The notes: generated by a model not told the origin, from the letters alone. Positions 1,713-53,220 are shown, counted from the stretch's first letter. The stretch: 64,000 nt of DNA from Candidatus Daviesbacteria bacterium (GCA_016187025.1 JACPKM010000001.1:384055-448054); one strand, 5' to 3'. Program-made: numbers and translations.

Positions 1713-3191
1713 TTATTTGCTGATTTTATAGATAATAATATTTTCCATTTTAAAAACTCCTCTATCTTTAAAATATTCCCGTCCAAATTCTTCAGTTGCC
1801 CACATTTTAAACTTATCGATATCGTAAAAAGGAGTTTCAGCAAAAATTAATAAAGTACCTGCACTTCTATAATCATATTCTGAGTTTGGGTAAAAGCCAT
1901 ATTTTCTAAAGAAAAACCGGTATTCAAATCCCGTTGGAACTTTGGCATAAGCATCAGCAACTCTAATTAAATTAAATCCCCTGTCTTTGTTTACTAATTT
2001 TTTTTCTATTGAATATTTAACAGCTTGGTCTATTTTTTCAACCAATCCATCAGAATCTTTATATAAACCAATTGGGAAATAAAAGATATTTATTAGTACA
2101 AAGATAGCAAGTACATAAAAGAAGTGGGAGTTTAAAATTATTAGTACACTTGCAAAAGAGATAAAAAACATTACCCCAAATAAATAGTGGTTTTCATAAT
2201 GGAAAAACATTAAAGGAAACAACAAACTCAAACTCAGTATTAAACAAATAAACAAAAAAACATTCTGTTTAAAAATGCCTTTGCGCTTTTCTTTTAAAGT
2301 TTTTAGCTGATAAGCGATAACCAAAAATGGTAGTACTAAAAAACCAATAAAGTTAAAGTTGGTAAATTCTTTAAACTTATCAAGCAGATAGAAGGATATA
2401 CTAATAAGTTTATTAGAATGTAGAGCAAGTTGAGGTTTGTTTGGACTATTTATATATGAGCTCAAAGAGTTGTTGATGAATGTATCCCTGGTCATTATAA
2501 AGCCATGTTTTATTTCAAAGGCAACTAAAGGTAAAAAAGTAATAAGTGCTCCAAAAAGAAAGTAGAAGAAGGTTTTCTTAACTTTTATACAATATAGAAG
2601 GTAACAAGAAATAAAAAAAGTTGGAAAGATACTTGCCGGATGAATATTTACAATTATTCCAGCCAAAACTCCCAGTAAAAAAATTGCTATCTTGCTTCTA
2701 TAACTATAGAAAAATACTAATGTGGCAAAAATCAGCAAAAATGGAAAGTAAGTATAACCATTGCTGGGATGTCTTGCGCTCAAGACAAAAAATGGTAAAA
2801 GGACAATAGTTAAGCAAGCAAGAGTTGCTTGCCAAACACCAATTTTTTTTGAAATTGTAATGTATAAAAAGCTCACAGCTATGGAAAAGAGGATTGCATG
2901 AGAATATAAAACAGCACCAATACTGTAGTTGCTTAAAAGTAAAACTGGAGCAAGTAAATAGTAAAAGTAAGGCCCTGCATAATACCCGCCAAAATTCATC
3001 TTTGGGCCAATTAGCACTAAATCTGCCTGGGTAATCCGCAAAGAATGGTACATGTCTCTGCCAAAGTCAGTAGTCAGCAAAAAGGCATTAGGTAAGTTGT
3101 AAGTATATATTATAATGATTGTGAGAAAAAATACTGTTATAACCAGATAATTTTTAAAAAAGTTGATCATTGTTATCATTTGATTATACAA
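1713..3191 (-). CDS. GT-C fold membrane glycosyltransferase (GT39/GT83, ArnT/PMT-like)
   Basis: 492 aa, polytopic. N-terminal acidic loop motif 'TTDFGRDMY' resembles the DE/DxD loop of PMT/ArnT enzymes. Paralogous to the ORFs at 30583, 50099 and 51670. Confidence 0.65.
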   Translation of the reverse strand: MYNQMITMINFFKNYLVITVFFLTIIIIYTYNLPNAFLLTTDFGRDMYHSLRITQADLVLIGPKMNFGGYYAGPYFYYLLAPVLLLSNYSIGAVLYSHAILFSIAVSFLYITISKKIGVWQATLACLTIVLLPFFVLSARHPSNGYTYFPFLLIFATLVFFYSYRSKIAIFLLGVLAGIIVNIHPASIFPTFFISCYLLYCIKVKKTFFYFLFGALITFLPLVAFEIKHGFIMTRDTFINNSLSSYINSPNKPQLALHSNKLISISFYLLDKFKEFTNFNFIGFLVLPFLVIAYQLKTLKEKRKGIFKQNVFLFICLILSLSLLFPLMFFHYENHYLFGVMFFISFASVLIILNSHFFYVLAIFVLINIFYFPIGLYKDSDGLVEKIDQAVKYSIEKKLVNKDRGFNLIRVADAYAKVPTGFEYRFFFRKYGFYPNSEYDYRSAGTLLIFAETPFYDIDKFKMWATEEFGREYFKDRGVFKMENIIIYKISK

Positions 3192-3258
3192 AGTAATTTA
3201 TTTTAATGATAAGAGATATTTTTCATGTAAAAATATTTCGAATAGGAGGTGAAAAGTT

Positions 3259-3447
3259 ATGTGTTACAACTGTGGTTGTGGAATGCCAGATGATGATATG
3301 GGTAAAGGAAATGCGGGACTAGACCCAAAGGGTAAATCAATTACCAACAAAACCTTTGAAGAAGCGGCAAAGTCCCAAGGAATGAGTGTTGAGGATGCAA
3401 AAAAAGAAGCGCTTAAATTACTAAAAAAGGATCTAGGCGAGAGCTGA
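3259..3447 (+). CDS. Small hypothetical protein with Cys-rich N-terminus (MCYNCGCG...)
   Basis: 62-aa ORF preceded by a strong SD (AGGAGGTG) about 8 nt upstream of ATG. Lys/Glu-rich C-terminal half. Confidence 0.5.
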   Translation: MCYNCGCGMPDDDMGKGNAGLDPKGKSITNKTFEEAAKSQGMSVEDAKKEALKLLKKDLGES

Positions 3448-3491
3448 TAATACTTGATTTTAATAACTTAGTAGAGATACTATTGATTTAG

Positions 3492-3824
3492 ATGAGGATT
3501 TTAATTCATTGGCTAATAAGCGGATTGGCAGTTTTATCAGCAGCTTATATCCTGCCTGGGGTTCATGTTTCCGGAATATTTGCAGCCTTGATTGTGGCAC
3601 TGGTTCTGGGAATTATTAATGCGTCTTTAAAACCTGTAATTTTGCTCTTAACTCTTCCCATTAACTTGCTTACCTTAGGATTGTTTACTTTAGTTATTAA
3701 TGGCTTATTAATTCTGCTTGCTGCTTCGATTGTTCCAGGTTTTAGGGTAGATGGATTTTTGTGGGCATTTTTATTTAGTATAGTTTTGTCTATCATCAAC
3801 TATTTCCTGTTTAAGCTTCTTTAA
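3492..3824 (+). CDS. Phage-holin-family (superfamily IV, DUF360-like) 4-TMS small membrane protein
   Basis: 110 aa, four hydrophobic segments. Sequence pattern (GIINASLKPVILLLTLPINLLTLGLF...) is typical of the YvlD/DUF360 holin-like family. Recalled from memory, not searched. Confidence 0.65.
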   Translation: MRILIHWLISGLAVLSAAYILPGVHVSGIFAALIVALVLGIINASLKPVILLLTLPINLLTLGLFTLVINGLLILLAASIVPGFRVDGFLWAFLFSIVLSIINYFLFKLL

Positions 3825-3833
3825 ATCCACAAA

Positions 3834-3860
3834 AAATCCCGCACAAAGCGGGATTTCTTG
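3834..3860. terminator. Putative rho-independent terminator (possibly bidirectional)
   Basis: Stem aaatcccgc / gcgggattt with a 5-nt loop, flanked by an A-run upstream and a T-rich tail (tttcttg) downstream. Lies immediately after the stop codon at 3824. Confidence 0.5.
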
Positions 3861-3980
3861 AAAACCTACTAAAAAATAGGCATATATATTAATACAAGCT
3901 TTATTATATTTAGTCAACTGGATCGTAGTGGATCAAGTTAAACAATTTACAATTTATCATCTACACTTTAAAATAAGTTT

Positions 3981-4481
3981 ATGGTGTATTTGGCAACTGA
4001 TCATGCCGGGTTTGAGTTAAAAGAGAAAGTAAAGGAATTTCTACAAAAAGAGGGTTACGAGGTAGAGGATTGTGGAGCGTTTGAGTTTGATAAAAACGAC
4101 GATTATCCGGATTTTATTTCTGTTGCTGCCAAAAAAGTTTCTCAGGATCCCCAAGGTGTGGCTATTATTTTTGGAAATTCCGGGCAGGGTGAGGCGATGG
4201 TGGCCAATAAGTATAAAAACGTCAGAGCTGCTTTGTTTTATGGCCCAGTATTACCAGTAAAGGCAGTGGATGCTTCAGGTAGAGAAAGTGCAGATCCTTT
4301 TGAGATGGTGAGGCTTACTCGTGAACATAATCATGCAAACGTACTCTCTCTTGGAGCAAGCTTTTTAACCGAGCAACAAGCCTTTGATGTTATAAAGAAG
4401 TGGTTAAACACTAAATCTAGCGGTGAAGAGCGTCATGTAAGAAGAGTAAATAAAATTAAGCAGATCGAGGAAAATTTATAG
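3981..4481 (+). CDS. rpiB: Ribose-5-phosphate isomerase B
   Basis: RpiB/LacAB family signature (MVYLATDHAGFELK..., GNSGQGEAMVANK). 166 aa. Confidence 0.9.
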   Translation: MVYLATDHAGFELKEKVKEFLQKEGYEVEDCGAFEFDKNDDYPDFISVAAKKVSQDPQGVAIIFGNSGQGEAMVANKYKNVRAALFYGPVLPVKAVDASGRESADPFEMVRLTREHNHANVLSLGASFLTEQQAFDVIKKWLNTKSSGEERHVRRVNKIKQIEENL

Positions 4482-5126
4482 ATGGTTCAGATTATTCCTG
4501 CGGTTCTGGCAACAACAGAAGAAGCCTTCGGGCAGGATTTAGATAAAATTCAATCATCTGATGCTTTAAAAGACGGTTGGGTACATATTGACTTTGCAGA
4601 CAATAAATTTGTTCCAAATCAAACAATTACCCCATCACAGCTAGCAAATCAATCAATTCAGTTAAAAAAAGAGGCACACTTGATGGTAGATAATCCTCTT
4701 GAATGGATAGATGAGCTTGCAAGAGCAGGTTTTGCAAGGATCATTTTTCATCTTGAGGCAAAGGATGATACACTGGAATGTATTAAGGCAATTGAGGTAA
4801 AGGGTTTACAGACAGGCATTGCAATCAATCACCAAACACCGCTCTCTGAAATAGAGCAGTATATAGGTAAGATTGAAGGTGTACTGATGATGGCGATTGA
4901 ACCAGGTTTTCAGGGAAAGCCATTTATACCTGAATCCTTAGAGAAAATCAGGCAATTTAAAGCAAGGGGTTGGCAGGTTAGCTTGGCTGTAGACGGGGCG
5001 GTCAGAGATGAAAACGCCAAACAACTGGTTGAGGCAGGAGTAGACCGTTTGATAGTAGGTTCATTTTTACTGAAAGGAAATTTAGATGAAAATCTGGAAA
5101 GACTTTGGGAAGCTGTTAAAAGCTGA
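4482..5126 (+). CDS. rpe: Ribulose-phosphate 3-epimerase
   Basis: Motifs HIDFADNKFVPN, HLMVDNP and C-terminal DGAV in positions typical of Rpe. Start codon abuts the rpiB stop. Confidence 0.8.
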   Translation: MVQIIPAVLATTEEAFGQDLDKIQSSDALKDGWVHIDFADNKFVPNQTITPSQLANQSIQLKKEAHLMVDNPLEWIDELARAGFARIIFHLEAKDDTLECIKAIEVKGLQTGIAINHQTPLSEIEQYIGKIEGVLMMAIEPGFQGKPFIPESLEKIRQFKARGWQVSLAVDGAVRDENAKQLVEAGVDRLIVGSFLLKGNLDENLERLWEAVKS

Positions 5127-5766
5127 AAAAGAAGATATTAAAAAAGCTAAAAGCATTGAATCTGTAGCCATATTTGGTTATGCAGATTCAATAGAGAGTG
5201 ATTCTTTATACAAAAGCGTTGTGGCAGTGGCTCGCAAGCTTGCAGAAGCAGGTTATACAGTAGTTGATGGTGGAGGCCCAGGAGTCATGAAAGCAGCTAC
5301 GGTAGGTGCAAAGCTGGGTGGAGGCCATGTTGTTGGAGTAACCCTTTATCCAAAAGATATGGATAATTTTGAAGGTAGGGATAAAACTAATCTCTTCGAC
5401 GAAGAGATAAAAACCGACAATTACGTAGAAAGGACCTTAAGTTTGATGAAAGAGGGTCAGGTTTATGTAGTGTTTAAAGGAGGGACAGGAACTATTTCAG
5501 AGTTTGGAATGGCATGGGGCCTGGCCCGACTTTATTTTGGCCATCATAAGCCTTTAATACTGTATGGTAAGTTTTGGAAAAATATAATTGAGGCTTTTAA
5601 GGAAAATATGTTTTTGCGCCCTGAAGATTTAAAGGTATATAAAGTTGTTGATTCACCAACTGGGGTTTTGAAAGCGATAAATGAATTCGAGGAAGAAATC
5701 AAAAGAGGAGAGCACAAAAATTTAGTAGCTTCAAAAAATAAGGACCTTCTGCGCAGTTCAGTATGA
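5086..5766 (+). CDS. LOG-family protein (TIGR00730 Rossmann-fold nucleotide-binding / cytokinin riboside 5'-monophosphate phosphoribohydrolase-like)
   Basis: GGGPGVM motif and overall LOG/Rossmann pattern. Overlaps the rpe 3' end in another frame. Confidence 0.75.
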   Translation: MKIWKDFGKLLKAEKEDIKKAKSIESVAIFGYADSIESDSLYKSVVAVARKLAEAGYTVVDGGGPGVMKAATVGAKLGGGHVVGVTLYPKDMDNFEGRDKTNLFDEEIKTDNYVERTLSLMKEGQVYVVFKGGTGTISEFGMAWGLARLYFGHHKPLILYGKFWKNIIEAFKENMFLRPEDLKVYKVVDSPTGVLKAINEFEEEIKRGEHKNLVASKNKDLLRSSV

Positions 5767-44101: not shown

Positions 44102-45094
44102 TTATTGTCCTTGTTGACGCTGCCTTAGAAGCTCAGCTGCTGATGTGGCTGCTGGAGCGGGAGATTGAGTTGAATCTTCCATCTGCCCAAAGTTAGCAGA
44201 GCCTGTTGCCATCTCCTCAGATTGTGGGGCAGGAGTAGAGGCTGGGGGAGGGGGTTTTATTTGTTGAGCTGTATTTTCTGTTGTAGCAGGAAGGCTGGTG
44301 GTTCCTTCTTTAGGTTGTCCAACCCCTAGAATAAAATATGCGGAAGCTGCAGAAACAGCCAGGAGTAACCCCGCGCCTAATCCTAGAATCCACTTGGGTA
44401 CTCCTTTGCTAGGATTTGGTGGTGTAGTTGTTGATGTTTCAGGAACTGTATTTGCGTTTTGAGTTGTCAAGGTTTCTGCTTGGGTGTTTGCAGGTAAGGA
44501 AGTGTTGGTAAAGTCGGTGGTATCTGTTATTAAATGAGACAAATCAGTTGGAGCCTGTTCAATACTGGCTTGAGGCGGTTGAGGATTGTATGTATTCTGT
44601 GTGCTAGGAATTCCTTCCCATGAAGGTGAAATAGTTGTGTCGGTAGTTGGAATTATTCCTTCTTGTGGTGCTGGATTTGTTATAGGATCAGCAGGTACTG
44701 GTTGGGCAGGAAGAGGTTCGGGTATATTAAAAGATGGTGGTAGGCTTTCAGTTGGTGTAACTGGTTGAGTAGGATAAGGATTTGACTGAGGGTTTAAAAA
44801 AGAATTTGGATCTGTTGGGGGGATTGCATCAGATGACAAAGGATTGCCTAAAGGTTGTGGAGCAGTTACAGATGGAGCCATTGGTGGGTTAGGAGCAGGT
44901 GTTAAATCTTGCGGAGAACTAGTGAAACTACTCGTTTGCTGATCAAACGGGGTAGCAGGAGGTGTAGGATTTTGAGGTAGATTTTGGTTTTGTGCAAAGC
45001 TTAATTCAGGATCCTGAGGTGGTTGATTGCCAGCAACAGGAGTTGGAGGGGTATTTAAATTATCAGTATTTGAGCTGTTTGAGTTGTTATCCAT
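44102..45094 (-). CDS. Low-complexity Pro/Thr/Gln/Asn-rich protein with a single TM helix
   Basis: 330 aa, extreme P/T/Q/N bias. One hydrophobic helix 'WILGLGAGLLLAVSAASAYFILGV' near the C-terminal third. No enzymatic motif. Confidence 0.45.
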   Translation of the reverse strand: MDNNSNSSNTDNLNTPPTPVAGNQPPQDPELSFAQNQNLPQNPTPPATPFDQQTSSFTSSPQDLTPAPNPPMAPSVTAPQPLGNPLSSDAIPPTDPNSFLNPQSNPYPTQPVTPTESLPPSFNIPEPLPAQPVPADPITNPAPQEGIIPTTDTTISPSWEGIPSTQNTYNPQPPQASIEQAPTDLSHLITDTTDFTNTSLPANTQAETLTTQNANTVPETSTTTPPNPSKGVPKWILGLGAGLLLAVSAASAYFILGVGQPKEGTTSLPATTENTAQQIKPPPPASTPAPQSEEMATGSANFGQMEDSTQSPAPAATSAAELLRQRQQGQ

Positions 45095-47878: not shown

Positions 47879-48793
47879 ATGTATAAGATTTTTATTATAT
47901 TCTTGCTGTCTATAGTTATGCTTGCCCCTGTGGGTGTATATGCGCAGGAAGAGCAATCAATAGACCAAATCCCTCTCGAATCCACTGAGTCCTCAAAAGA
48001 AGCTACTTCTTCAACCTCTGAAAAAGAGAGGTTAGAAAAACTAAAACAGGAAGATATTACCAAGCCAGAAGAAGAAAAGCAGCGGGAGGAATTCTTGGCT
48101 TTATTTTCAAAAAGGCACATTGATAAACTAACGCCTTTAAACTTTATGGGTTATTTGGTGCAATACTCTATAAAAGTTGGAGTGCCTGCGAATACGGTTA
48201 TATTAATTTTATTGGTTCCTTTTTTGGCAACTTTTATAGTTTTTGTCAGGCAAATTATTGGACTACCAAGTTTGGAGATGTTGGTACCAATTGCGCTTTC
48301 TATTACCTTTATATCAACTGGTATTACAGCAGGTGCTATCCTTCTTGCAACAATTTTGCTTGCATCAACTATTGCAAGAATAACTTTAAAAAAGATTAGA
48401 ATTATGCAATTACCTAAGATTGCATTATCAAACTTAGTGGTTGCAATATTTGTTTTTATTTCCTTAACAGTTAGTGCATCTGTAGGAATCCTAACGGTAA
48501 AACAGTTATCAATCTTTCCAGTTTTGCTGCTGATATTACTTAGCGAAAAGACAGTTGCTGTGCAACTTTCCCGTGGTCCTCAAGAGGCTTTTGTAATTAC
48601 CTCTATGACTTTACTGCTAGCAATTATCGGGTTTTTAATACTTTCATCTGAAACAGTCAGAAGCTTTATTTTGCTATATCCAGAGCTAATACTTGCTTTG
48701 GTGCCAATCAATATTATTATGGGAAGATATTTTGGACTTAGGCTTACAGAGTTCTTTCGTTTTTCTACTTTGAGAAAATATGTCAATCAGTAA
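47879..48793 (+). CDS. Seven-TM membrane protein with signal peptide and acidic N-terminal ectodomain (partner of the ATP-grasp gene)
   Basis: Signal peptide (…LAPVGVYAQEE), about 70-aa E/K/S-rich region, then about 7 hydrophobic helices. 3' end overlaps the next gene by 14 nt. Confidence 0.55.
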   Translation: MYKIFIIFLLSIVMLAPVGVYAQEEQSIDQIPLESTESSKEATSSTSEKERLEKLKQEDITKPEEEKQREEFLALFSKRHIDKLTPLNFMGYLVQYSIKVGVPANTVILILLVPFLATFIVFVRQIIGLPSLEMLVPIALSITFISTGITAGAILLATILLASTIARITLKKIRIMQLPKIALSNLVVAIFVFISLTVSASVGILTVKQLSIFPVLLLILLSEKTVAVQLSRGPQEAFVITSMTLLLAIIGFLILSSETVRSFILLYPELILALVPINIIMGRYFGLRLTEFFRFSTLRKYVNQ

Positions 48794-50096
48794 GGGCATC
48801 TTAGGATTAAACGCCCGTAACTTCCTTTATATTAGAAAATACAACCTTCCTTCTCCAAAACAGCGGGCAGATAATAAGCTAGAGACAAAAAAGCTACTGA
48901 TTAGGAATAAAATTCCAACTAATAAACTGCTGCAAGTTTTTGACAATAGAGAAAGTATTAAAAACTTTGATTGGAGTTTACCAGAGGAAGGGTTTGCTCT
49001 AAAGCCTGCAAGAGGATATGGGGGAGAGGGAATATTAATTTTTAAAAACTGGAATAACCAAAAAGGGGAAACTATATCGGGGGAGACATTCGATGTTAGA
49101 CAAATAGAATCTCATATCCTTGATATTTTTGAAGGCGCATATTCTCTTCAGTCCCTACCGGATAAGGCCTATATAGAAGAAAAAATTACCCCCCAGCATT
49201 TTTTAAAAAAAATTGATTTAATGGGACTGCCTGATATTAGGATTATCGTTTTTAATAAAGTTCCTGTTATGGCAATGTTAAGACTGCCAACACCGGAATC
49301 AAAAGGAAAAGCTAACCTGCATTTGGGAGCAGTTGGTGTAGGAATAGATCTTCGGACCGGTATTACCAAGGATGCTGTTTACAGAGGGACTTTAATTACT
49401 TTTATTCCCAATACCAAGATTAAAACAAGGGGGATAAAAATTCCTTTTTGGGACCAGATTTTAATGCTTGCTTCTAAGGCTCAATTTGTCAGTAGGTTAG
49501 GACTTGCTGGTGTGGACATTGTGATAGATGAAAACATAGGCCCACTTATATTAGAAATCAATTCCAGGCCTGGGTTATCAATACAAAATGCAAATTTGGC
49601 ATCTCTTAGGTCAAGGTTAGAAAGAGTAGAGCATATTAATATTCCAAGTTTTGAAAGAGCCATTGAGGTGTCAAGGTCGCTTTTTGCAGATGATTTTTCA
49701 GATAAAGTGGATCTTGACCCAAAAGTACTTTCAATTATAGAGCCGATTGTTGTAATAAATGAAGGTAAAAGCAAAATGTATGAAGCAAAACTCGATACAG
49801 GGGCTTTTAGAACTTCCCTTGATAAAGATGTTGTGCAAGAACTCAACCTAGAATATCAAAAGGAGAAAATCTTAATTAAGGCTGCTAGTGGTCAACAAGA
49901 AAGAAGAGTGGTTAAGCTGACATTTAACTTAGCAGGAAAGAAAATTACTACCAACGCAACAGTTGCAGAAAGAGGACACTTAAAATATCCGATTATTGTT
50001 GGCAGAAGAGACTTAAAAGGATTTTTAATTAACCCAGATTTACCCGAAGAAAAAAGCGGAGAAGCAATTGAGGATATTGAAATAAGTACCGAGTAA
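48780..50096 (+). CDS. RimK-like ATP-grasp amidoligase ('sugar-transfer-associated' type, N-terminal 'GLNARN' motif) fused to a C-terminal retropepsin-like aspartyl protease domain
   Basis: ATP-grasp blocks: 'ILGLNARNFLYI', 'DNKLETKKLLIRNKIP', 'ALKPARGYGGEGILI', 'DIRIIVFNKVPVMAMLRL...ANLHLGA', 'LAGVDIVIDENIGPLILEINSRPG'. C-terminal 'KLDTGAFRTSL' (DTGA at nt 49794-49805) and 'IIVGRRDLKG' (retropepsin GRD/N-type motif). Confidence 0.7.
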   Translation: MSISKGILGLNARNFLYIRKYNLPSPKQRADNKLETKKLLIRNKIPTNKLLQVFDNRESIKNFDWSLPEEGFALKPARGYGGEGILIFKNWNNQKGETISGETFDVRQIESHILDIFEGAYSLQSLPDKAYIEEKITPQHFLKKIDLMGLPDIRIIVFNKVPVMAMLRLPTPESKGKANLHLGAVGVGIDLRTGITKDAVYRGTLITFIPNTKIKTRGIKIPFWDQILMLASKAQFVSRLGLAGVDIVIDENIGPLILEINSRPGLSIQNANLASLRSRLERVEHINIPSFERAIEVSRSLFADDFSDKVDLDPKVLSIIEPIVVINEGKSKMYEAKLDTGAFRTSLDKDVVQELNLEYQKEKILIKAASGQQERRVVKLTFNLAGKKITTNATVAERGHLKYPIIVGRRDLKGFLINPDLPEEKSGEAIEDIEISTE

Positions 50097-50098
50097 TA

Positions 50099-51625
50099 TT
50101 ATTCGACAAATCCTAAAACTGGTTCTGTAAGGTTAGTGTTTGCTCCACTGCAATGGTAATCAAGGGTTTTTTTATCTGGAACTTTGGCAGGTAAAATAAC
50201 CCCCATTGGACCATAGCTTTGAGCGATTTCTTTTTCCGACCAAGAATAAGGGTAAACAATACTATAAACTGGAACATTGTTGGAAGGAGGTGCAAGCTTT
50301 AGGTTATATAAATAGAAAAAATACCGAAAGCCAACATTTTCTCCGGGATAGGTGATATAGTTTATTCCCACACAAGGATAGTTTTTTGCTTTAATATCAT
50401 TTGATATAAACTCAGCCACTGCCTTTCTTTCTTTATATCCTGTATGGATGGGATCTGTTGTAGCGTTAATTTGAAAATTTCTAACGAGTAAGATTACAAA
50501 AAAAGAGATGACCAGGCTTTTGTAAGCTTTTGACAAACCCATGAAGTAAGAAAATAATAAGCTAATTACTGCAATTATTATTACTTCAAAGTTTATAAAA
50601 TAGTATTCAGATATTGGTTTAGAGGATAATGAAAAATAAAGCAGGATTCCCAGGATCCAAGAAAACATAAGAATTGTCTCTTTCATCCGTAGAATCTGCT
50701 TTCTGATTAAAAAGGCAGTAGATAGCCCCACCACCAAAAGAGGAATAAATTTTAAACCACCAGATATTGAATTGGGATAGAAAAATAGATCATTAGTGTT
50801 TTTGGCTATAAACTCAGTAACAATCATAGCTTTATACCAGCCTGTGCTGCCTCCGAGTTCATGTGAAAAGCTTTGTAAAATACTGGAAATCTGCAGGAAA
50901 TTGTTTCTTGTTTCAAATACTAAAAAAGGAATAGAAAAAAATATTAAGCTTGCTAAAGAGTATAGACTTTGTTTAAGGCTTGGAAGCTTTTTTGATACAT
51001 ATATTGCTATTGGGATTGCAATTAAAGCAGGTAAGAGCGCAAGATGAATATGCCAGGTTAGTGCAATAAGTATGCCAAGTATAGGTAACACCCTAAAGTT
51101 TCCTCTTGCCAGCATTATGAGGGTGTATAAATACCAGATAGCCCAAAGCTTGGTTGTGATTGTAGGTACAATCCATCGATCAAACCCTACCGATGATAAA
51201 GAAATTGCATGTATAAATGCGGCAGTTAGCCCTGCAGTTTTGTGAAAAAGCCTACTAAAGCAAAAGTAGTAACTTAAGATAGTAGCTGCCCCAACAATAG
51301 GAGCTAAATAGGCACTGCCTATTGGGTCCATATTAAACAATGTAAATAATGGGACAAGCAGATAATAAAAAAGGGATCCTATGTACACTCCTTCGGCACT
51401 TGTTTGCTGGCCAATTAATCTAATATTTCCGTTAACAATAATATCTTTGGCAATCCAAGAATAAAGATCTGCATCGTGGGCAAATCCAAATAAATCAACT
51501 AAATTATATGTTCTAAATAACACACCTAACAAGGTTATAAAAACAAGCGTGATGAAAGTTTTATAATTGATCAATCTTTTTAGGCACATGTGAAATTCAT
51601 TATACTCTATCGTTATCACTTTCAA
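50099..51625 (-). CDS. GT-C fold membrane glycosyltransferase (ArnT/PMT-like)
   Basis: Polytopic. N-terminal loop 'FGFAHDADLYSWIAKD' resembles the GT39/83 acidic loop. 508 aa. Confidence 0.65.
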   Translation of the reverse strand: MKVITIEYNEFHMCLKRLINYKTFITLVFITLLGVLFRTYNLVDLFGFAHDADLYSWIAKDIIVNGNIRLIGQQTSAEGVYIGSLFYYLLVPLFTLFNMDPIGSAYLAPIVGAATILSYYFCFSRLFHKTAGLTAAFIHAISLSSVGFDRWIVPTITTKLWAIWYLYTLIMLARGNFRVLPILGILIALTWHIHLALLPALIAIPIAIYVSKKLPSLKQSLYSLASLIFFSIPFLVFETRNNFLQISSILQSFSHELGGSTGWYKAMIVTEFIAKNTNDLFFYPNSISGGLKFIPLLVVGLSTAFLIRKQILRMKETILMFSWILGILLYFSLSSKPISEYYFINFEVIIIAVISLLFSYFMGLSKAYKSLVISFFVILLVRNFQINATTDPIHTGYKERKAVAEFISNDIKAKNYPCVGINYITYPGENVGFRYFFYLYNLKLAPPSNNVPVYSIVYPYSWSEKEIAQSYGPMGVILPAKVPDKKTLDYHCSGANTNLTEPVLGFVE

Positions 51626-51669: not shown

Positions 51670-53220
51670 ATGAGTAGAAAGTTAGCCTTTATTATTTTTA
51701 TTGTTTTGGTAATTGGAACCATTTATAGACTTGTTTTAACTTCTAATGGAAACTTCATTTTTAATATGGATAATGCCAGAGATTTGGTTGATGTAAGAGA
51801 GATGGTAGAGCTGAAAAAGCTTAGATTAACAGGCCCGACCTCAGCAATTGAAGGATTTTTCAATGGTCCTGCTTGGTATTATCTTTTGGCAATTCCTTAT
51901 GCTTTAAGTGGTGGTGATCCATATTCAGCAATTGTTATGGAAATTCTACTTTGGGCGGTAGGGGGATACTTTTTGCTAAAGCTTGTCAGTGATTGGGGTA
52001 GATGGATTGTTTTGGTTGTTGGTAGTGTTTGGGTTGCCTCAAATTATATAGTTTTGGCAACAGTATATTCTTTTAACCCAAATCCTGTAACCTTGTTGAC
52101 GCCACTGTTTATTTTTACACTAGTAAAATATATAAAAACAGATAAATTAATCTATGCAATTTCAGTATTTTTACTGGGAGGATTATTTTTTAATTTCGAG
52201 ATGAATTTCGGGATTTTTACCCCATTGATCATATTTTTCTCCCTTTTTGTTTATAAGAAATTTAGTGTATTTAAATCAAGAAATTTCTGGATAGGAAGTC
52301 TATTTTTTGCGACGGCGCTATTGCCACAAGTCCTATTTGATCTAAAGCATGATTTCTTGATGACAAACTCAGTACTGAATTATTTAAGAAATACACCAGC
52401 TGGAAACTACGATATCTTTTCAAGACTACAACTTATTGCTAATACTTTTTTTGGAACATTTATACCAACGCTAATGAATTATAAAACGATTGCCCAAATA
52501 TTAATAATTCTTTTTGTACCAATTATCATAAAATCAATTAAGCTTGGTGAACTGAAAAAAAATCCAGTAGTGCTGGCTAGTGTGCTATATATTTTTATTC
52601 CCTTTGTGGGCTATGTACTTTTACCGGTGACAGTAAACCCTTGGCATTTGGGTGGACCCATGACAGCCTCTTTGATATTAATAGCTTTTGTATTAAGCCG
52701 GGTAAATCAAATAAATTTCGCAGGGAAAATAACAAGCTTTTTATTGGGTTTTACTCTATTGTTTTTCTCATTTAATAATATAGCCAATTACTTTCGCGAA
52801 AGAAGTAAGCCAAATATGGATCCTTCTCTTTTTGCAAATGAGATGAAAGCAATAGATTATGCTTACAAACTTGCAGATGGAAAAAACTTTAAGCTGTATT
52901 CATATCTTCCTTCAGTAATTGATTTCCCTTACCAATACTTAATTTGGTGGCATGGAAGGAAAAGTTATGGTTATCTTCCTTCAGAATATGCTTATTCTCC
53001 AAATATACCCCGATACATTTCAAATAAGCAATTTTTCTCTGCAAACCAAGAAAGTTTAAAACAGAGAGACAACTCAGGTTTGGTGTTTATGGTTAAAGAA
53101 CCAGACCGTATTAAAATGAGACGTGCTTGGGAAGATGACTTTGATCCTTTGAAGTTTATTTCCAAAGAAATGATAGGACCCCTTGAAATAGAGGTCAGGA
53201 AAGAGGAGACTCAACCCTAA
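51670..53220 (+). CDS. GT-C fold membrane glycosyltransferase (ArnT/PMT-like)
   Basis: Polytopic. 'FNMDNARDLVDVREM' acidic loop after TM1. 516 aa. Divergently transcribed from 50099-51625. Confidence 0.6.
   Translation: MSRKLAFIIFIVLVIGTIYRLVLTSNGNFIFNMDNARDLVDVREMVELKKLRLTGPTSAIEGFFNGPAWYYLLAIPYALSGGDPYSAIVMEILLWAVGGYFLLKLVSDWGRWIVLVVGSVWVASNYIVLATVYSFNPNPVTLLTPLFIFTLVKYIKTDKLIYAISVFLLGGLFFNFEMNFGIFTPLIIFFSLFVYKKFSVFKSRNFWIGSLFFATALLPQVLFDLKHDFLMTNSVLNYLRNTPAGNYDIFSRLQLIANTFFGTFIPTLMNYKTIAQILIILFVPIIIKSIKLGELKKNPVVLASVLYIFIPFVGYVLLPVTVNPWHLGGPMTASLILIAFVLSRVNQINFAGKITSFLLGFTLLFFSFNNIANYFRERSKPNMDPSLFANEMKAIDYAYKLADGKNFKLYSYLPSVIDFPYQYLIWWHGRKSYGYLPSEYAYSPNIPRYISNKQFFSANQESLKQRDNSGLVFMVKEPDRIKMRRAWEDDFDPLKFISKEMIGPLEIEVRKEETQP

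What the first reader, a model, noticed from the sequence alone, without database searches (positions are those of the whole stretch)
47879..50096. Two-gene module: acidic-ectodomain 7TM protein plus RimK-like ATP-grasp fused to a retropepsin-like aspartyl protease
The 438-aa ORF has an N-terminal ATP-grasp with the 'GLNARN' start and RimK-like ATP-binding blocks, as in alpha-L-glutamate-ligase-related or 'sugar-transfer-associated' ATP-grasps. It ends in a domain with the retropepsin hallmarks 'LDTGA' and 'IIVGRRDL'. It overlaps by 14 nt (translational coupling) with a preceding gene for a signal-peptide, acidic-ectodomain, about 7-TM protein. Comparative-genomics work has predicted three-gene systems (RimK-like ATP-grasp, 7TM protein often fused to an inactive transglutaminase, separate retropepsin-like protease) as peptide-tagging or cell-surface modification systems; their function is experimentally uncharacterised. 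Here ligase and protease sit in one polypeptide and the 7TM partner lacks a transglutaminase-like domain, giving a minimal and possibly novel architecture. Possible roles are ATP-dependent addition of amino acids to a peptide or protein carboxylate and processing by the fused protease, perhaps gated by the 7TM protein.
Basis: partly seen in the sequence, partly recalled or inferred. Interest (0 to 1): 0.8.

Follow-up and report, generated by a model that had tools for sequence, protein, structure and literature searches.

The report
Rlo-type ligase–protease fusion with 7TM partner
This is a real, strongly conserved two-gene module of ultra-small (CPR/Patescibacteria) bacteria, a rearranged version of the recently described RloABC envelope-stress system in which the glutamate-tail-cutting protease is fused to the cytoplasmic ATP-grasp ligase instead of being secreted.

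Summary
Two ORFs overlap by 14 nt. The 304-aa protein has a signal peptide, a charged linker and a 7TM_transglut core, with no transglutaminase domain. The 438-aa protein has an ATPgrasp_ST/RloC-type ATP-grasp, a retropepsin-like domain (DTGA, IIVG) and a disordered acidic tail.

It is not a one-off. At least 500 species-level genomes, by their titles almost all Patescibacteria, encode the full-length fusion. In 82 of 82 loci with upstream DNA the 7TM gene lies directly upstream, most often with the same 14-nt overlap.

The parent system is no longer uncharacterised. RloABC of Pseudomonas (2025) has secreted retropepsins that cut runs of 8 or more Glu, and loss of RloB or RloC suppresses the protease-null phenotypes.

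The window's version differs in three ways:
- The protease is cytoplasmic: no signal peptide, no cysteines.
- The transglutaminase ectodomain is replaced by a short linker carrying a conserved D-h-T-K-P-E-E motif.
- The fusion ends in a compositionally conserved acidic tail.

Other lineages carry signal anchor–protease–7TM plus ligase, protease–7TM–ligase in one chain, 7TM–ligase, and ligase–protease–MATCAP. The protease therefore sits on either side of the membrane.

Verdict: new variant of a known kind. The most likely mechanism is oligo-glutamate synthesis with cis trimming, coupled to the 7TM protein. This is inferred, not shown.

The parts
47879..48793 (+). Gene for the 304-aa 7TM partner. 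It resembles the 7TM half of RloB and has no transglutaminase domain.
   Evidence: ORF. PF14402 7TM_transglut 6e-25 and NCBIfam RloB profile positions 290-506 only. 28% identity over 196 aa to the C-terminal half of Legionella RloB. Directly upstream of the fusion gene in 82/82 related loci.
47879..47944 (+). Signal-peptide-like N-terminal hydrophobic segment (residues 1-22, ending VYA|QEE).
   Evidence: Hydropathy. Homologues have an equivalent segment that usually ends in (F/H/Y)AQ. Cleavage is inferred, not shown.
47945..48187 (+). Extracytoplasmic charged linker (residues 23-103). It occupies the position of RloB's inactive transglutaminase domain.
   Evidence: 17 D/E against 12 K/R. In 74 homologues its length and sequence vary (median 65 aa after the signal segment) and it is S/T/A/E-rich.
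48053..48076 (+). Conserved ectodomain motif D-[ILV]-T-[KRQN]-P-E-[EQG] (DITKPEEE, residues 59-66). It is followed by LF..R at residues 74-79.
   Evidence: Alignment of 74 distinct 7TM partners. No counterpart was seen on reading Legionella RloB. Function unknown.
48188..48724 (+). Seven-transmembrane core (residues 104-282).
   Evidence: Seven hydrophobic spans. Inside loops hold 12 K+R and outside loops 2. Pfam 7TM_transglut match.
48722..48763 (+). Nearly invariant cytoplasmic end motif GRYFGLRLTEFFRF (residues 282-295). It is the likely docking site for the ligase.
   Evidence: G282-R288, E291 and F295 are conserved in at least 95% of the 74 homologues, and R294 in at least 80%. The same motif (G.Y.G.RL.EL.RF) is in Legionella RloB. 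In natural 7TM::ATP-grasp fusions the ligase starts 20-45 aa after this motif. The docking role is inferred.
48780..48793 (+). 14-nt overlap between the stop of the 7TM gene and the start of the fusion gene.
   Evidence: Sequence ATGTCAATCAGTAA. The same 14-nt overlap occurs in 35 related loci and an 11-nt overlap in 8. It is also seen in L003 and L004. Translational coupling is inferred.
48780..50096 (+). Gene for the 438-aa ATP-grasp::retropepsin fusion protein.
   Evidence: ORF. A 100%-identical protein is in NCBI from Candidatus Daviesbacteria. The top 120 homologues are 413-466 aa long and most carry the same precomputed ATP-grasp plus aspartyl-protease-type Pfam hits.
48780..49679 (+). 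RloC-type ATP-grasp ligase domain (residues 1-300).
   Evidence: PF14397 at 223.9 bits. TIGR02291 at 262 bits, below its cutoff of 314. 37.7% identity to Legionella RloC. AF2 pLDDT is mostly above 85 and the best PDB fold matches are RimK 5zk6, 5zct and 4iwx. K75, D246, E259, N261 and R263 are invariant in 56 sequences.
49680..49718 (+). Low-confidence (probably flexible) interdomain linker (residues 301-313).
   Evidence: AF2 pLDDT is 53 on average for residues 301-310 and below 50 for residues 306-313.
49719..50036 (+). Retropepsin-like aspartic protease domain (residues 314-419), with no signal peptide and no cysteine.
   Evidence: PF05618 and PF13650. Domain model pLDDT 84. Best Foldseek PDB matches are Lpg0085 (2pma), RloA (9g58) and RloA2 (9g59), then HIV-1, foamy-virus and Ddi1 proteases. 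Invariant residues are K337, D339, G341, A342, R344, D348, R375, R398 and G408.
49794..49805 (+). Catalytic DTGA motif (D339-A342).
   Evidence: D339, G341 and A342 are invariant in the 56 aligned homologues, and position 340 is T or S. The motif aligns with the AK(L/M)DTGA of the RloA structures.
50037..50093 (+). Disordered acidic C-terminal tail (residues 420-438, DLPEEKSGEAIEDIEISTE).
   Evidence: pLDDT below 50. In 194 fusion proteins the last 17 aa have net acidity of 5 or more in 61%, against 0.6% of background ORFs. 32% end in Glu against 4.7% of background. The longest encoded Glu run is 4 or fewer. Stand-alone RloC-type ligases lack such a tail.

Best explanation
This is the Patescibacteria (CPR) form of the Rlo-type ATP-grasp / 7TM / retropepsin system, compressed into two translationally coupled genes.

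The first protein is a membrane protein with its N-terminus outside and its C-terminus inside. It has a signal peptide and a short variable charged linker carrying a conserved D-h-T-K-P-E-E motif, where RloB has its inactive transglutaminase domain. Its 7TM core ends in an invariant cytoplasmic GRYxGLRLxExxRF motif.

The second protein is cytoplasmic. It has an RloC-type ATP-grasp amino-acid ligase, a retropepsin-like aspartic protease domain that must pair with a second copy to form an active site, and an acidic tail.

Inferred mechanism:
1. The ligase, docked under the 7TM protein, uses ATP to build alpha-linked oligo- or poly-glutamate. The chain may be free or may grow on an acidic C-terminus.
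2. The fused protease keeps the poly-Glu-binding residues of RloA and RimB. It cuts the chain once the Glu run exceeds about 6-8 residues. Chain length is therefore limited, or product released, on the cytoplasmic side. In Proteobacteria and Chloroflexi the homologous protease does this on the outer face.
3. The 7TM protein is the one invariant partner of the ligase. It most likely passes the anionic product to the cell surface, or couples synthesis to the state of the envelope.

Shown here: the gene structure, the domain identities and folds, conservation of the catalytic and substrate-binding residues, the topology, and the invariant gene pairing.

Inferred, not shown: the substrate (Glu), the polymer, protease activity, the physical ligase-7TM contact, and export.
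For: Domain identities:
- Pfam and NCBIfam matches.
- AF2 models with pLDDT about 84. The ligase matches RimK best. The C-terminal domain matches Lpg0085, RloA and RloA2, then the retroviral proteases.

Catalytic competence:
- The ATP-grasp residues K75, D246, E259 and N261 are invariant.
- The protease residues K337-x-D339-T/S-G-A are invariant across 56 to 120 homologues.
- R375 and R398 align with the Arg of the 'ERP/ARP' and 'DRS' stretches in the RloA structures. Their spacing from the catalytic Asp (+68, +91) matches RloA_Pa R114 and R137. Together with K46, these are the residues needed for poly-Glu cleavage (paper).

Protease location:
- No signal peptide, no TM segment and no cysteine. 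Periplasmic RloA proteins have a conserved disulfide and cytosolic RimB does not (paper).

Obligate pairing:
- The 7TM gene is directly upstream in 82/82 loci across Microgenomates, Parcubacteria and Saccharibacteria-type genomes. No other neighbour is conserved.

Ligase-7TM contact and C-in topology:
- Natural 7TM::ATP-grasp fusions (L089, 584 aa; P0206).
- The positive-inside count.

The same parts in other arrangements:
- Canonical A-B-C operons in Legionella and Aeromonas.
- Signal anchor-protease-7TM with an overlapping ligase gene (L090, L091).

Link to acidic-tail chemistry:
- A MATCAP-family carboxypeptidase gene lies immediately upstream in 11 loci. It is fused C-terminally in P0162 and P0209. 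The eukaryotic relatives of this family trim acidic tubulin tails (abstract of PMC10499314).

Published genetics and biochemistry for the parent systems:
- RloA and RimB cleave poly-Glu. RimK makes poly-alpha-Glu. Deleting rloB or rloC suppresses the triple rloA mutant.
Against: - No RloC-type ligase has a demonstrated substrate. Glutamate is extrapolated from RimK (about 20% identity) and from the specificity of the proteases.
- The ligase scores below NCBI's cutoff for TIGR02291 (262 against 314 bits). The protease domain scores far below the RloA, RimB and RloB equivalog cutoffs. Functional transfer is therefore across a large distance.
- The CPR protease domain has much shorter flaps than RloA, with about 32 residues missing in the pairwise alignment. 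This could change its specificity.
- An export role for the 7TM protein has no direct evidence in any organism.
- If the product is trimmed inside the cell, the reason for keeping the 7TM partner is not explained by the data.
- Dimerisation of the protease domain was not modelled.
Confidence: 0.55

Rival explanations
1. Self-priming cycle. The ligase elongates the acidic C-terminal tail of the fusion protein itself, or of the neighbouring subunit, with glutamates, as RimK does on RpsF. The adjacent retropepsin dimer then cuts off the added run. The enzyme thereby meters out oligo-glutamate peptides that leave through the 7TM partner.
For: - The tail is disordered. It is not conserved in sequence but is strongly conserved in composition. 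Net acidity is 5 or more in 61% of 194 proteins against 0.6% of background, and 32% end in Glu against 4.7%.
- Encoded Glu runs never exceed 4. That is below the cleavage thresholds published for RimB (5-6) and RloA (8). The tail would become a substrate only after extension.
- Stand-alone RloC-type ligases lack the tail.
Against: - In the ligase-protease-MATCAP triple fusions the equivalent segment is internal, so it has no free C-terminus.
- Two thirds of the tails do not end in Glu.
- An acidic disordered tail could equally be a pseudosubstrate, or simply aid solubility.
Confidence: 0.12
2. The C-terminal domain acts mainly as a RimB-like regulatory or oligomerisation module. It activates or assembles the ligase, and proteolysis is secondary or absent.
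For: - RimB binds RimK and stimulates its ATPase and its poly-Glu production, independently of cleaving RpsF tails (paper).
- Fusing the two would make that interaction permanent.
- Retropepsin domains are obligate dimers and could drive ligase oligomerisation.
Against: - The catalytic D-T/S-G-A is invariant, as are the substrate-binding K337, R375 and R398, across all homologues examined. A purely structural role would not require this.
- Tandem-duplicated protease domains occur in relatives (ligase-PR-PR, PR-PR-7TM). This points to selection for a complete two-lobed active site.
Confidence: 0.13
3. The ligase does not make poly-glutamate. It amidates or peptide-modifies an envelope precursor (peptidoglycan stem, teichoic-acid-like polymer or glycolipid) that the 7TM protein presents or flips. 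The protease processes a protein partner.
For: - The Pfam family is named 'sugar-transfer associated ATP-grasp'.
- rlo mutants show cell-shape, beta-lactam and vesiculation phenotypes.
- Some CPR loci lie near Mur ligase, Ddl, FemAB, alanine racemase and D-Ala-D-Ala carboxypeptidase genes.
Against: - Those neighbours are lineage-specific. Only the two-gene pair is conserved across the related loci.
- The protease keeps the poly-Glu-binding residues.
- The recurrent third partner is a MATCAP-type carboxypeptidase of acidic peptide tails, not a sugar or cell-wall enzyme.
- The closest solved folds are RimK, LysX/ArgX and cyanophycin synthetase. All of these extend peptide or amino-acid carboxylates.
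Confidence: 0.15
4. The fusion is an assembly or gene-calling artefact: a frameshift or read-through joining two separate genes.
For: None found. It was considered only because the window comes from a metagenome-assembled genome.
Against: The same continuous ORF of 413-466 aa occurs among the best 120 protein hits and in at least 500 independent species genomes. Both domains are conserved in register.
Confidence: 0.01

Closest known systems
RloABC operon of Pseudomonas aeruginosa (Lormand et al. 2025, PMC11957051). Equivalent A-B-C operons were seen here in Legionella adelaidensis (L086) and Aeromonas caviae (L088).
   Same: - The same three modules: an ATPgrasp_ST/TIGR02291-type ligase (38% identity to Legionella RloC), a 7TM_transglut membrane module ending in the same cytoplasmic motif (28% identity), and a PF05618 retropepsin-like protease with DTGA and the K/R/R poly-Glu-binding residues.
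- The genes are contiguous and overlapping.
   Different: - The protease is fused to the C-terminus of the ligase. It therefore lacks a signal peptide and the periplasmic disulfide, and it has shorter flaps.
- The 7TM protein has no inactive transglutaminase domain (PF14400 absent). It carries a short linker with a CPR-specific motif instead.
- Gene order is B'-(C::A) rather than A-B-C.
- The fusion protein has an added acidic C-terminal tail.
- The host is a Patescibacterium, whereas the paper reports RloB as 96% proteobacterial.
- Scores are below the NCBIfam equivalog cutoffs for RloA, RloB and TIGR02291.
RimK-RimB of Pseudomonas: poly-alpha-glutamate ligase plus a cytoplasmic retropepsin-like protease (PMC11957791).
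   Same: A cytoplasmic ATP-grasp ligase is paired with a cytoplasmic retropepsin-like protease that lacks a signal peptide and a disulfide. RimB physically binds RimK. The likely logic is the same: add Glu, then trim Glu.
   Different: - The ligase is not of the RimK family proper (TIGR00768 scores 50 bits against a cutoff of 143, and about 20% identity to RimK structures).
- The window module has an obligate 7TM partner, which RimBK lacks.
- There is no evidence that RpsF is the target.
- The two activities are covalently fused.
Haloarchaeal RimK::retropepsin fusion proteins, annotated 'RimK/LysX family protein' (for example Salinirubellus WP_338918009, L087:2419-3768).
   Same: The domain order is the same: ATP-grasp, then a C-terminal PF05618 retropepsin domain, in one polypeptide of about 450 aa. 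The protease domain is the short-flap, signal-less type. It matches the CPR domain profile far better (E 3e-22) than Legionella RloA does (3e-9).
   Different: - The ligase half is RimK-type (PF08443), not ATPgrasp_ST.
- There is no adjacent 7TM gene in that locus.
- There is no long acidic tail.
Alternative arrangements of the same module found here: [signal anchor-protease-7TM] + ligase (L090, L091; Chloroflexi-type P0252), single-chain protease-7TM-ligase (P0206), and 7TM::ligase (Halobacterium sp. DL1, L089).
   Same: The same three domain families, the same overlap-coupled 7TM-to-ligase gene order, and the same cytoplasmic RLxELxRF end motif.
   Different: In those arrangements the protease lies on the extracytoplasmic side of the 7TM module, or is absent. 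In the window it lies on the cytoplasmic side.
Eukaryotic tubulin-tail enzymes: TTL/TTLL ATP-grasp ligases with MATCAP/TMCP carboxypeptidases.
   Same: This is an analogy only. ATP-grasp ligases add amino acids to acidic C-terminal tails and dedicated peptidases remove them. CPR relatives of the window module recruit a MATCAP-family (PF08014) gene or domain, and P0209 carries an HExxxH motif.
   Different: The window itself has no MATCAP gene. There is no tubulin-like target, and no membrane partner in the eukaryotic system.

Membership tests
RloABC system (Rlo operon) | An RloC-type cytoplasmic ATP-grasp (Pfam ATPgrasp_ST PF14397). | tested here: met
   PF14397 at 223.9 bits against a cutoff of 31.4, residues 13-284. 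37.7% identity over 298 aa to the protein annotated 'alpha-L-glutamate ligase-like protein' in a Legionella A-B-C operon.
RloABC system (Rlo operon) | The ligase reaches NCBIfam TIGR02291 (alpha-L-glutamate ligase-like, hypothetical equivalog) at its trusted cutoff. | tested here: not met
   262.4 bits against a cutoff of 314.2. The protein is related to the family but falls outside the curated equivalog.
RloABC system (Rlo operon) | An RloB 7TM module adjacent to the ligase gene. | tested here: met
   PF14402 at 88.5 bits against a cutoff of 25. 28% identity to the 7TM half of Legionella RloB, including the terminal motif. The genes overlap by 14 nt. The pairing holds in 82/82 loci.
RloABC system (Rlo operon) | RloB carries a periplasmic inactive transglutaminase domain (PF14400), and full-length RloB reaches NF052267. 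| tested here: not met
   No PF14400 hit. NF052267 scores 69 bits against a cutoff of 900 and matches profile positions 290-506 only. Legionella RloB does have PF14400.
RloABC system (Rlo operon) | A separate, secreted RloA protease with an N-terminal signal peptide and a conserved disulfide. | tested here: not met
   The protease domain is residues 314-419 of the ligase polypeptide. It has no signal peptide or TM segment and no cysteine. The RloA3 and RloA2 models score 34 and 24 bits against cutoffs of 210 and 250. No second retropepsin gene lies in the 64-kb window.
RloABC system (Rlo operon) | The protease keeps the residues that bind poly-Glu (RloA_Pa K46, R114, R137) and the catalytic D48. 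| tested here: met
   K337, D339, R375 and R398 are invariant. They align with the corresponding residues of RloA and RloA2 in the PDB profile alignment. Residue equivalence to RloA_Pa numbering is inferred from spacing.
RloABC system (Rlo operon) | A role in hypo-osmotic tolerance and envelope integrity, with rloB/rloC epistatic to rloA. | not testable with these tools
   This needs genetics. The only cultivated-CPR Tn-seq data set searched (Southlakia, PMC10633639 supplement) yielded a RimB-RimK pair and no 7TM_transglut (transglutaminase) hit.
RimK/RimB system | A RimK-family ligase (TIGR00768 / PRK10446). | tested here: not met
   TIGR00768 scores 50.4 bits against a cutoff of 143.4. PRK10446 scores 16 bits against 331. 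RimK is nevertheless the best solved fold match.
RimK/RimB system | A cytoplasmic retropepsin-like partner without a signal peptide (RimB, NF052261). | tested here: inconclusive
   The cytoplasmic location and lack of cysteines fit RimB. The RimB model scores only 12.7 bits against a cutoff of 200.
RimK/RimB system | The target is ribosomal protein S6 (RpsF) with a Glu-Glu C-terminus. | not tested
   RpsF of this genome was not examined. The obligate 7TM partner argues for a different target.
Retropepsin-like aspartic peptidases (clan AA) | The half-pepsin beta-barrel fold. | tested here: met
   The domain model (pLDDT 84) matches 2pma, 9g58 and 9g59 (E 1e-7 to 1e-6), then HIV-1 protease, foamy-virus protease and Ddi1 (TM-score to target up to 0.71).
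Retropepsin-like aspartic peptidases (clan AA) | [quoted passage not shown] | tested here: met
   D339-T-G-A, with D339, G341 and A342 invariant. I406 and G408 of the IIVG motif are invariant.
Retropepsin-like aspartic peptidases (clan AA) | Homodimerisation to form the two-Asp active site. | not testable with these tools
   Only monomer models could be built. Indirect support comes from relatives with tandem duplicated protease domains and from the dimeric RloA crystals (paper).
ATP-grasp superfamily | The ATP-grasp fold with the conserved Lys and the Asp/Glu/Asn Mg-binding residues. | tested here: met
   The AF2 model matches RimK, LysX/ArgX, Ddl and cyanophycin synthetase. K75, D246, E259 and N261 are invariant. 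Assigning these residues to ATP and Mg binding rests on general knowledge of the superfamily.

The most novel reading that the evidence does not exclude
The fusion protein is a self-priming, self-trimming oligo-glutamate dispenser. The ligase extends the protein's own compositionally conserved acidic C-terminal tail. The adjacent retropepsin dimer clips the tail once it passes the length threshold. The 7TM partner exports the released anionic peptides to the surface of these wall-associated, host-dependent ultra-small bacteria. Because the homologous protease sits outside the membrane in other phyla, the 7TM module would be a new type of polyanionic-peptide translocator.
Probability: 0.1. Interest if true: 0.8.

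Novelty: new variant of a known kind. Interest (0 to 1): 0.55.

Why it matters
The Rlo system affects osmotic tolerance, antibiotic sensitivity, biofilm formation and cell shape in Pseudomonas. What RloB and RloC actually make or move is still unknown.

The CPR form is kept in very small genomes across at least 500 species, which argues for an important function. It also supplies natural experiments:
- The ligase-7TM pair is the invariant core, and is even fused in some archaea.
- The transglutaminase domain is dispensable.
- The protease works on either side of the membrane in different lineages.
- A MATCAP-type carboxypeptidase joins the module in some CPR clades.

These constraints point to a peptide product that crosses the membrane through, or alongside, the 7TM protein. 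The 438-aa protein is also a compact, soluble, single-chain target for identifying the ligase product biochemically. For Patescibacteria it flags a conserved envelope-associated module with no assigned role.

Tried and rejected
- The Iyer et al. 2009 amidoligase paper (PMC3268129), which predicted these systems, is not held. Whether it already describes this fusion could not be checked.
- Literature searches for the Pfam names, and for RimK or aspartic protease together with Patescibacteria, found no description of the CPR architecture.
- The promoter and terminator scan around the pair gave no more sites than shuffled sequence. Whether the pair is co-transcribed with secA, 40 nt upstream, is unresolved.
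- Neighbourhood clustering over the related loci found no third universally conserved gene. CTP synthase, BipA, GreA, LysM, MFS and EF-P neighbours are lineage-specific synteny.
- Peptidoglycan genes near some loci were considered as a functional link. This was rejected because they are not conserved.
- No MATCAP-like ORF and no second retropepsin ORF was found in the window.
- The Southlakia Tn-seq supplement showed only a RimB-RimK pair (non-essential) and no 7TM module, so it gives no fitness data for this system.
- The AFDB Foldseek library was unavailable. The first PDB fold search failed and was repeated.
- The artefact hypothesis (a frameshift fusion) was rejected.
- The two flanking polytopic membrane proteins (50099-51625 on the minus strand, 51670-53220 on the plus strand) have no Pfam match and are not conserved neighbours.

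Full report
**1. Observation**

The window holds two same-strand ORFs, 47879..48793 (304 aa) and 48780..50096 (438 aa), that overlap by 14 nt (ATGTCAATCAGTAA).

Pfam assigns the 438-aa protein to ATPgrasp_ST (PF14397, 3e-66, residues 13-284), with a C-terminal PF05618 (Zn_protease/RimB-like, 5e-8) and Asp_protease_2 match. It assigns the 304-aa protein to 7TM_transglut (PF14402, 6e-25), with no transglutaminase domain.

NCBIfam points to the recently named Rlo families:
- TIGR02291 'alpha-L-glutamate ligase-like': 262 bits, below the cutoff of 314.
- RloB: 69 bits, matching the 7TM half only, profile positions 290-506 of 508.
- RloA3 and RloA2: weak matches.

An identical protein is in NCBI from a Candidatus Daviesbacteria genome. 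The window is therefore from a CPR/Patescibacteria bacterium.

**2. Structure and residues**

An AlphaFold2 model built on 56 homologues has mean pLDDT 84.7. It shows an ATP-grasp at residues 14-300, a low-confidence linker at 301-313, a beta-rich domain at 314-420, and a disordered tail at 422-438.

Against the PDB the ligase matches RimK best (5zk6, 5zct, 4iwx), then ArgX/LysX, cyanophycin synthetase and Ddl.

The C-terminal domain was also modelled alone (pLDDT 84.2). It matches Legionella Lpg0085 (2pma), P. fluorescens RloA (9g58) and P. aeruginosa RloA2 (9g59). Next come HIV-1 protease, foamy-virus protease and Ddi1. The retropepsin fold is confirmed.

Conservation across 56 to 120 homologues:
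- The ATP-grasp residues K75, D246, E259 and N261 are invariant.
- In the protease, K337, D339, G341, A342, R344, D348, R375, R398 and G408 are invariant.

A profile alignment to the RloA structures puts K337-x-D339 on the AK(L/M)DTGA motif. It puts R375 and R398 on the two arginines at +68 and +91 from the catalytic Asp. By spacing these are RloA_Pa R114 and R137. Together with K46 they are the residues shown to be needed for poly-Glu cleavage (paper).

The domain has no cysteine. The RloA paper notes a conserved disulfide in periplasmic orthologues and none in cytosolic RimB. Compared with Legionella RloA, the CPR domain lacks about 32 residues in the flap region.

**3. The 7TM partner**

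Hydropathy shows a signal-like N-terminus and seven hydrophobic spans. Predicted inside loops carry 12 K+R and outside loops 2. This gives N-out/C-in.

Alignment of 74 distinct partners shows the following layout:
- A signal segment that usually ends in (F/H/Y)AQ.
- A variable S/T/A/E-rich linker, median 65 aa.
- A conserved motif D-[ILV]-T-[KRQN]-P-E-[EQG] (DITKPEEE here), then LF..R.
- The 7TM core.
- A nearly invariant cytoplasmic end, GRYFGLR..E..RF.

The end motif is shared with Legionella RloB. No counterpart of the ecto motif was seen on reading Legionella RloB. 'Acidic ectodomain' is therefore only partly apt: the region is a short charged linker with one conserved motif.

**4. How common, and is the pairing real?**

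The protein search returned 5,949 hits. The best 120 are all 413-466 aa long, and most carry the same precomputed ATP-grasp plus aspartyl-protease-type Pfam hits. Named sources are Daviesbacteria, Levybacteria, Curtissbacteria, Saccharimonadia and 'Patescibacteria group'.

The best 80 span Levy-, Curtiss-, Roizman-, Woese-, Kaiser- and Nomurabacteria, Paceibacterota and Saccharibacteria. Many titles read 'uncultured Gammaproteobacteria'. These are probably mislabelled: their proteins are 55-60% identical to the query, the same range as the Levybacteria-titled loci, and the four checked have 37-40% GC.

In all 82 loci with upstream DNA, the 7TM gene lies directly upstream on the same strand. 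The modal overlap is 14 nt (35 loci) or 11 nt (8 loci). No other gene is conserved across the set. The module is therefore a genuine, obligate two-gene unit.

**5. What is known**

- RloA1-3 are secreted retropepsin-like dimers that cut runs of 8 or more Glu.
- The triple mutant dies in hypo-osmotic medium and has biofilm, antibiotic and shape defects.
- Deleting rloB (inactive transglutaminase plus 7TM) or rloC (ATP-grasp) suppresses these defects.
- The product of RloB and RloC is unknown.

The related RimK-RimB pair makes and trims poly-alpha-Glu tails on RpsF. RimB also binds and activates RimK (PMC11957791). A Shewanella rloB-type mutant over-produces membrane vesicles.

Canonical A-B-C operons were recovered here from Legionella adelaidensis and Aeromonas caviae for comparison.

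**6. Where the window differs**

1. The protease is fused behind the ligase and must be cytoplasmic.
2. The transglutaminase ectodomain is missing.
3. The fusion ends in a tail that varies in sequence but is strongly conserved in composition. In 194 proteins, net acidity of 5 or more in the last 17 aa occurs in 61%, against 0.6% of background ORFs from the same loci. 32% end in Glu against 4.7%. Encoded Glu runs never exceed 4, below the published cleavage thresholds.
4. Stand-alone RloC-type ligases lack this tail.

**7. Other arrangements of the same parts**

A profile of the CPR protease domain was searched against 1.84 billion representative proteins. It found 1,971 hits, 497 of them at E of 1e-10 or better. 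Among the best 150:
- About 22 have the window's ligase-protease architecture, including fragments.
- 17 are [signal anchor]-protease-7TM proteins. One is from Chloroflexi, and one has tandem protease domains.
- 2 are single-chain protease-7TM-ligase proteins.
- 3 are ligase-protease-protease.
- 2 are ligase-protease-MATCAP triple fusions.

Two loci show [signal anchor-protease-7TM] genes overlapping a 287-288-aa ATPgrasp_ST gene (L090, L091). A Halobacterium plasmid carries an intact 584-aa 7TM::ATP-grasp ORF (L089). Haloarchaeal 'RimK/LysX family' proteins are RimK::retropepsin fusions (L087).

In 11 Parcubacteria- or Saccharibacteria-type loci, a MATCAP-family (PF08014) gene lies immediately upstream of the 7TM gene. 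The window has none.

Three conclusions follow:
- The ligase and the 7TM module contact each other at the cytoplasmic end of TM7.
- The transglutaminase domain is dispensable.
- The protease can sit on either side of the membrane.

**8. Mechanism (inferred)**

The most economical reading runs as follows. The ligase, docked under the 7TM protein, makes an alpha-linked Glu-rich chain. The retropepsin cuts it once it exceeds the length threshold. The 7TM protein gives the product access to the outside.

In Proteobacteria and Chloroflexi, trimming happens outside. In CPR it happens inside, before or instead of export. CPR have no outer membrane to retain a soluble secreted enzyme; that is my inference from general knowledge of these bacteria.

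The MATCAP association adds an exopeptidase for acidic tails. I put this reading at about 0.55.

Rivals:
- Self-priming on the enzyme's own acidic tail (0.12). This fits the tail statistics but not the triple fusions.
- A mainly regulatory, RimB-like role for the domain (0.13). The invariant catalytic and substrate-binding residues and the tandem-domain relatives disfavour it.
- A non-Glu envelope substrate (0.15). This is suggested by the family name and by envelope phenotypes, but the conserved partners do not support it.
- An assembly artefact, which is excluded.

**9. Novelty and score**

Every domain belongs to a known family, and the system is a relative of RloABC and RimBK. The proteins are already in public databases under generic names. 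I found no paper describing the CPR architecture, its acidic tail, the ecto motif, the MATCAP link or the inside/outside switch of the protease. I could not read the 2009 comparative-genomics paper.

I rate it a new variant of a known kind, with interest 0.55. It is not a new class of system. It is a widespread, compact form in reduced genomes, and it makes the open question of what RloB and RloC produce directly testable.

Noticed in passing
L056, L057, L060, L063, L064, L065, L068, L069, L070, L074, L076 (e.g. L068:1786-3060, then 7TM 3063-3998, then fusion 4001-5290); proteins P0162, P0209: In a Parcubacteria/Saccharibacteria-type subset, a MATCAP/DUF1704-family (PF08014) gene lies immediately upstream of the 7TM gene, making a three-gene operon. 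In two proteins the MATCAP domain is fused behind ligase-protease (about 800 aa). P0209 carries an HEIDTH (HExxxH) motif. This parallels the eukaryotic TTL/MATCAP tubulin-tail enzymes.
   Followed up: partly
L090:4001-6323 and L091:4001-5984; proteins P0130, P0161, P0194, P0252 (Chloroflexi), P0206: There is an alternative two-gene form: [signal anchor - retropepsin domain(s) - 7TM] overlapping a 287-288-aa ATPgrasp_ST gene. There is also a single-chain protease-7TM-ligase protein (657 aa). In both, the protease is on the outer side of the membrane, opposite to the window's arrangement.
   Followed up: partly
L089:4164-5918 (Halobacterium sp. DL1 plasmid CP007061.1): An intact 584-aa ORF fuses a 7TM_transglut-type module directly to an ATPgrasp_ST ligase. 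It has no ectodomain and no nearby protease. No gene is listed for it in the PLSDB gene table, which is incomplete.
   Followed up: partly
L087:2419-3768 (Salinirubellus plasmid); tblastn hits H5-H7 in Haladaptatus plasmids: Haloarchaeal proteins annotated 'RimK/LysX family' are RimK::retropepsin fusions (PF08443 + PF05618). Their protease domain resembles the CPR domain more closely than RloA does.
   Followed up: partly
P0130, P0220, P0240, P0269 and nine tandem-only representatives: The retropepsin domain is tandemly duplicated in several relatives (PR-PR-7TM, ligase-PR-PR). These may be single-chain pseudo-dimers, analogous to the pepsin duplication.
   Followed up: no
L085:2465-3952: One 7TM partner (495 aa) carries a PKD domain in its ectodomain in place of the short charged linker.
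   Followed up: no
L090:6412-7695: A glutamate dehydrogenase gene (ELFV_dehydrog) lies directly downstream of the ligase on the same strand in one locus. It is a possible link to glutamate supply, seen in a single case.
   Followed up: no
window 50099-51625 (-) and 51670-53220 (+): Two large ORFs (508 and 516 aa) with many hydrophobic stretches flank the module divergently. Neither has a Pfam match at E of 0.01 or better. They are not conserved next to the module in other genomes.
   Followed up: partly
window 44102-45094 (-): A 330-aa Pro/Thr/Gln/Ser-rich low-complexity protein with one hydrophobic segment lies between serS and secA. It has no Pfam match.
   Followed up: no
L008, L010, L011, L014, L017 and many others: Many binchicken TPA assemblies titled 'uncultured Gammaproteobacteria bacterium' carry this CPR-type module. 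Their proteins are 55-60% identical to the query, the same range as the Levybacteria-titled loci, and the four checked have 37-40% GC. The organism labels are probably wrong.
   Followed up: partly
Supplement of PMC10633639 (Southlakia epibionticum SEML1_0781/0782): The genetically tractable Saccharibacterium has a separate RimK plus RimB-like pair, both scored non-essential. The term search found no 7TM_transglut (transglutaminase) hit, so it is not a model for the window's system.
   Followed up: partly
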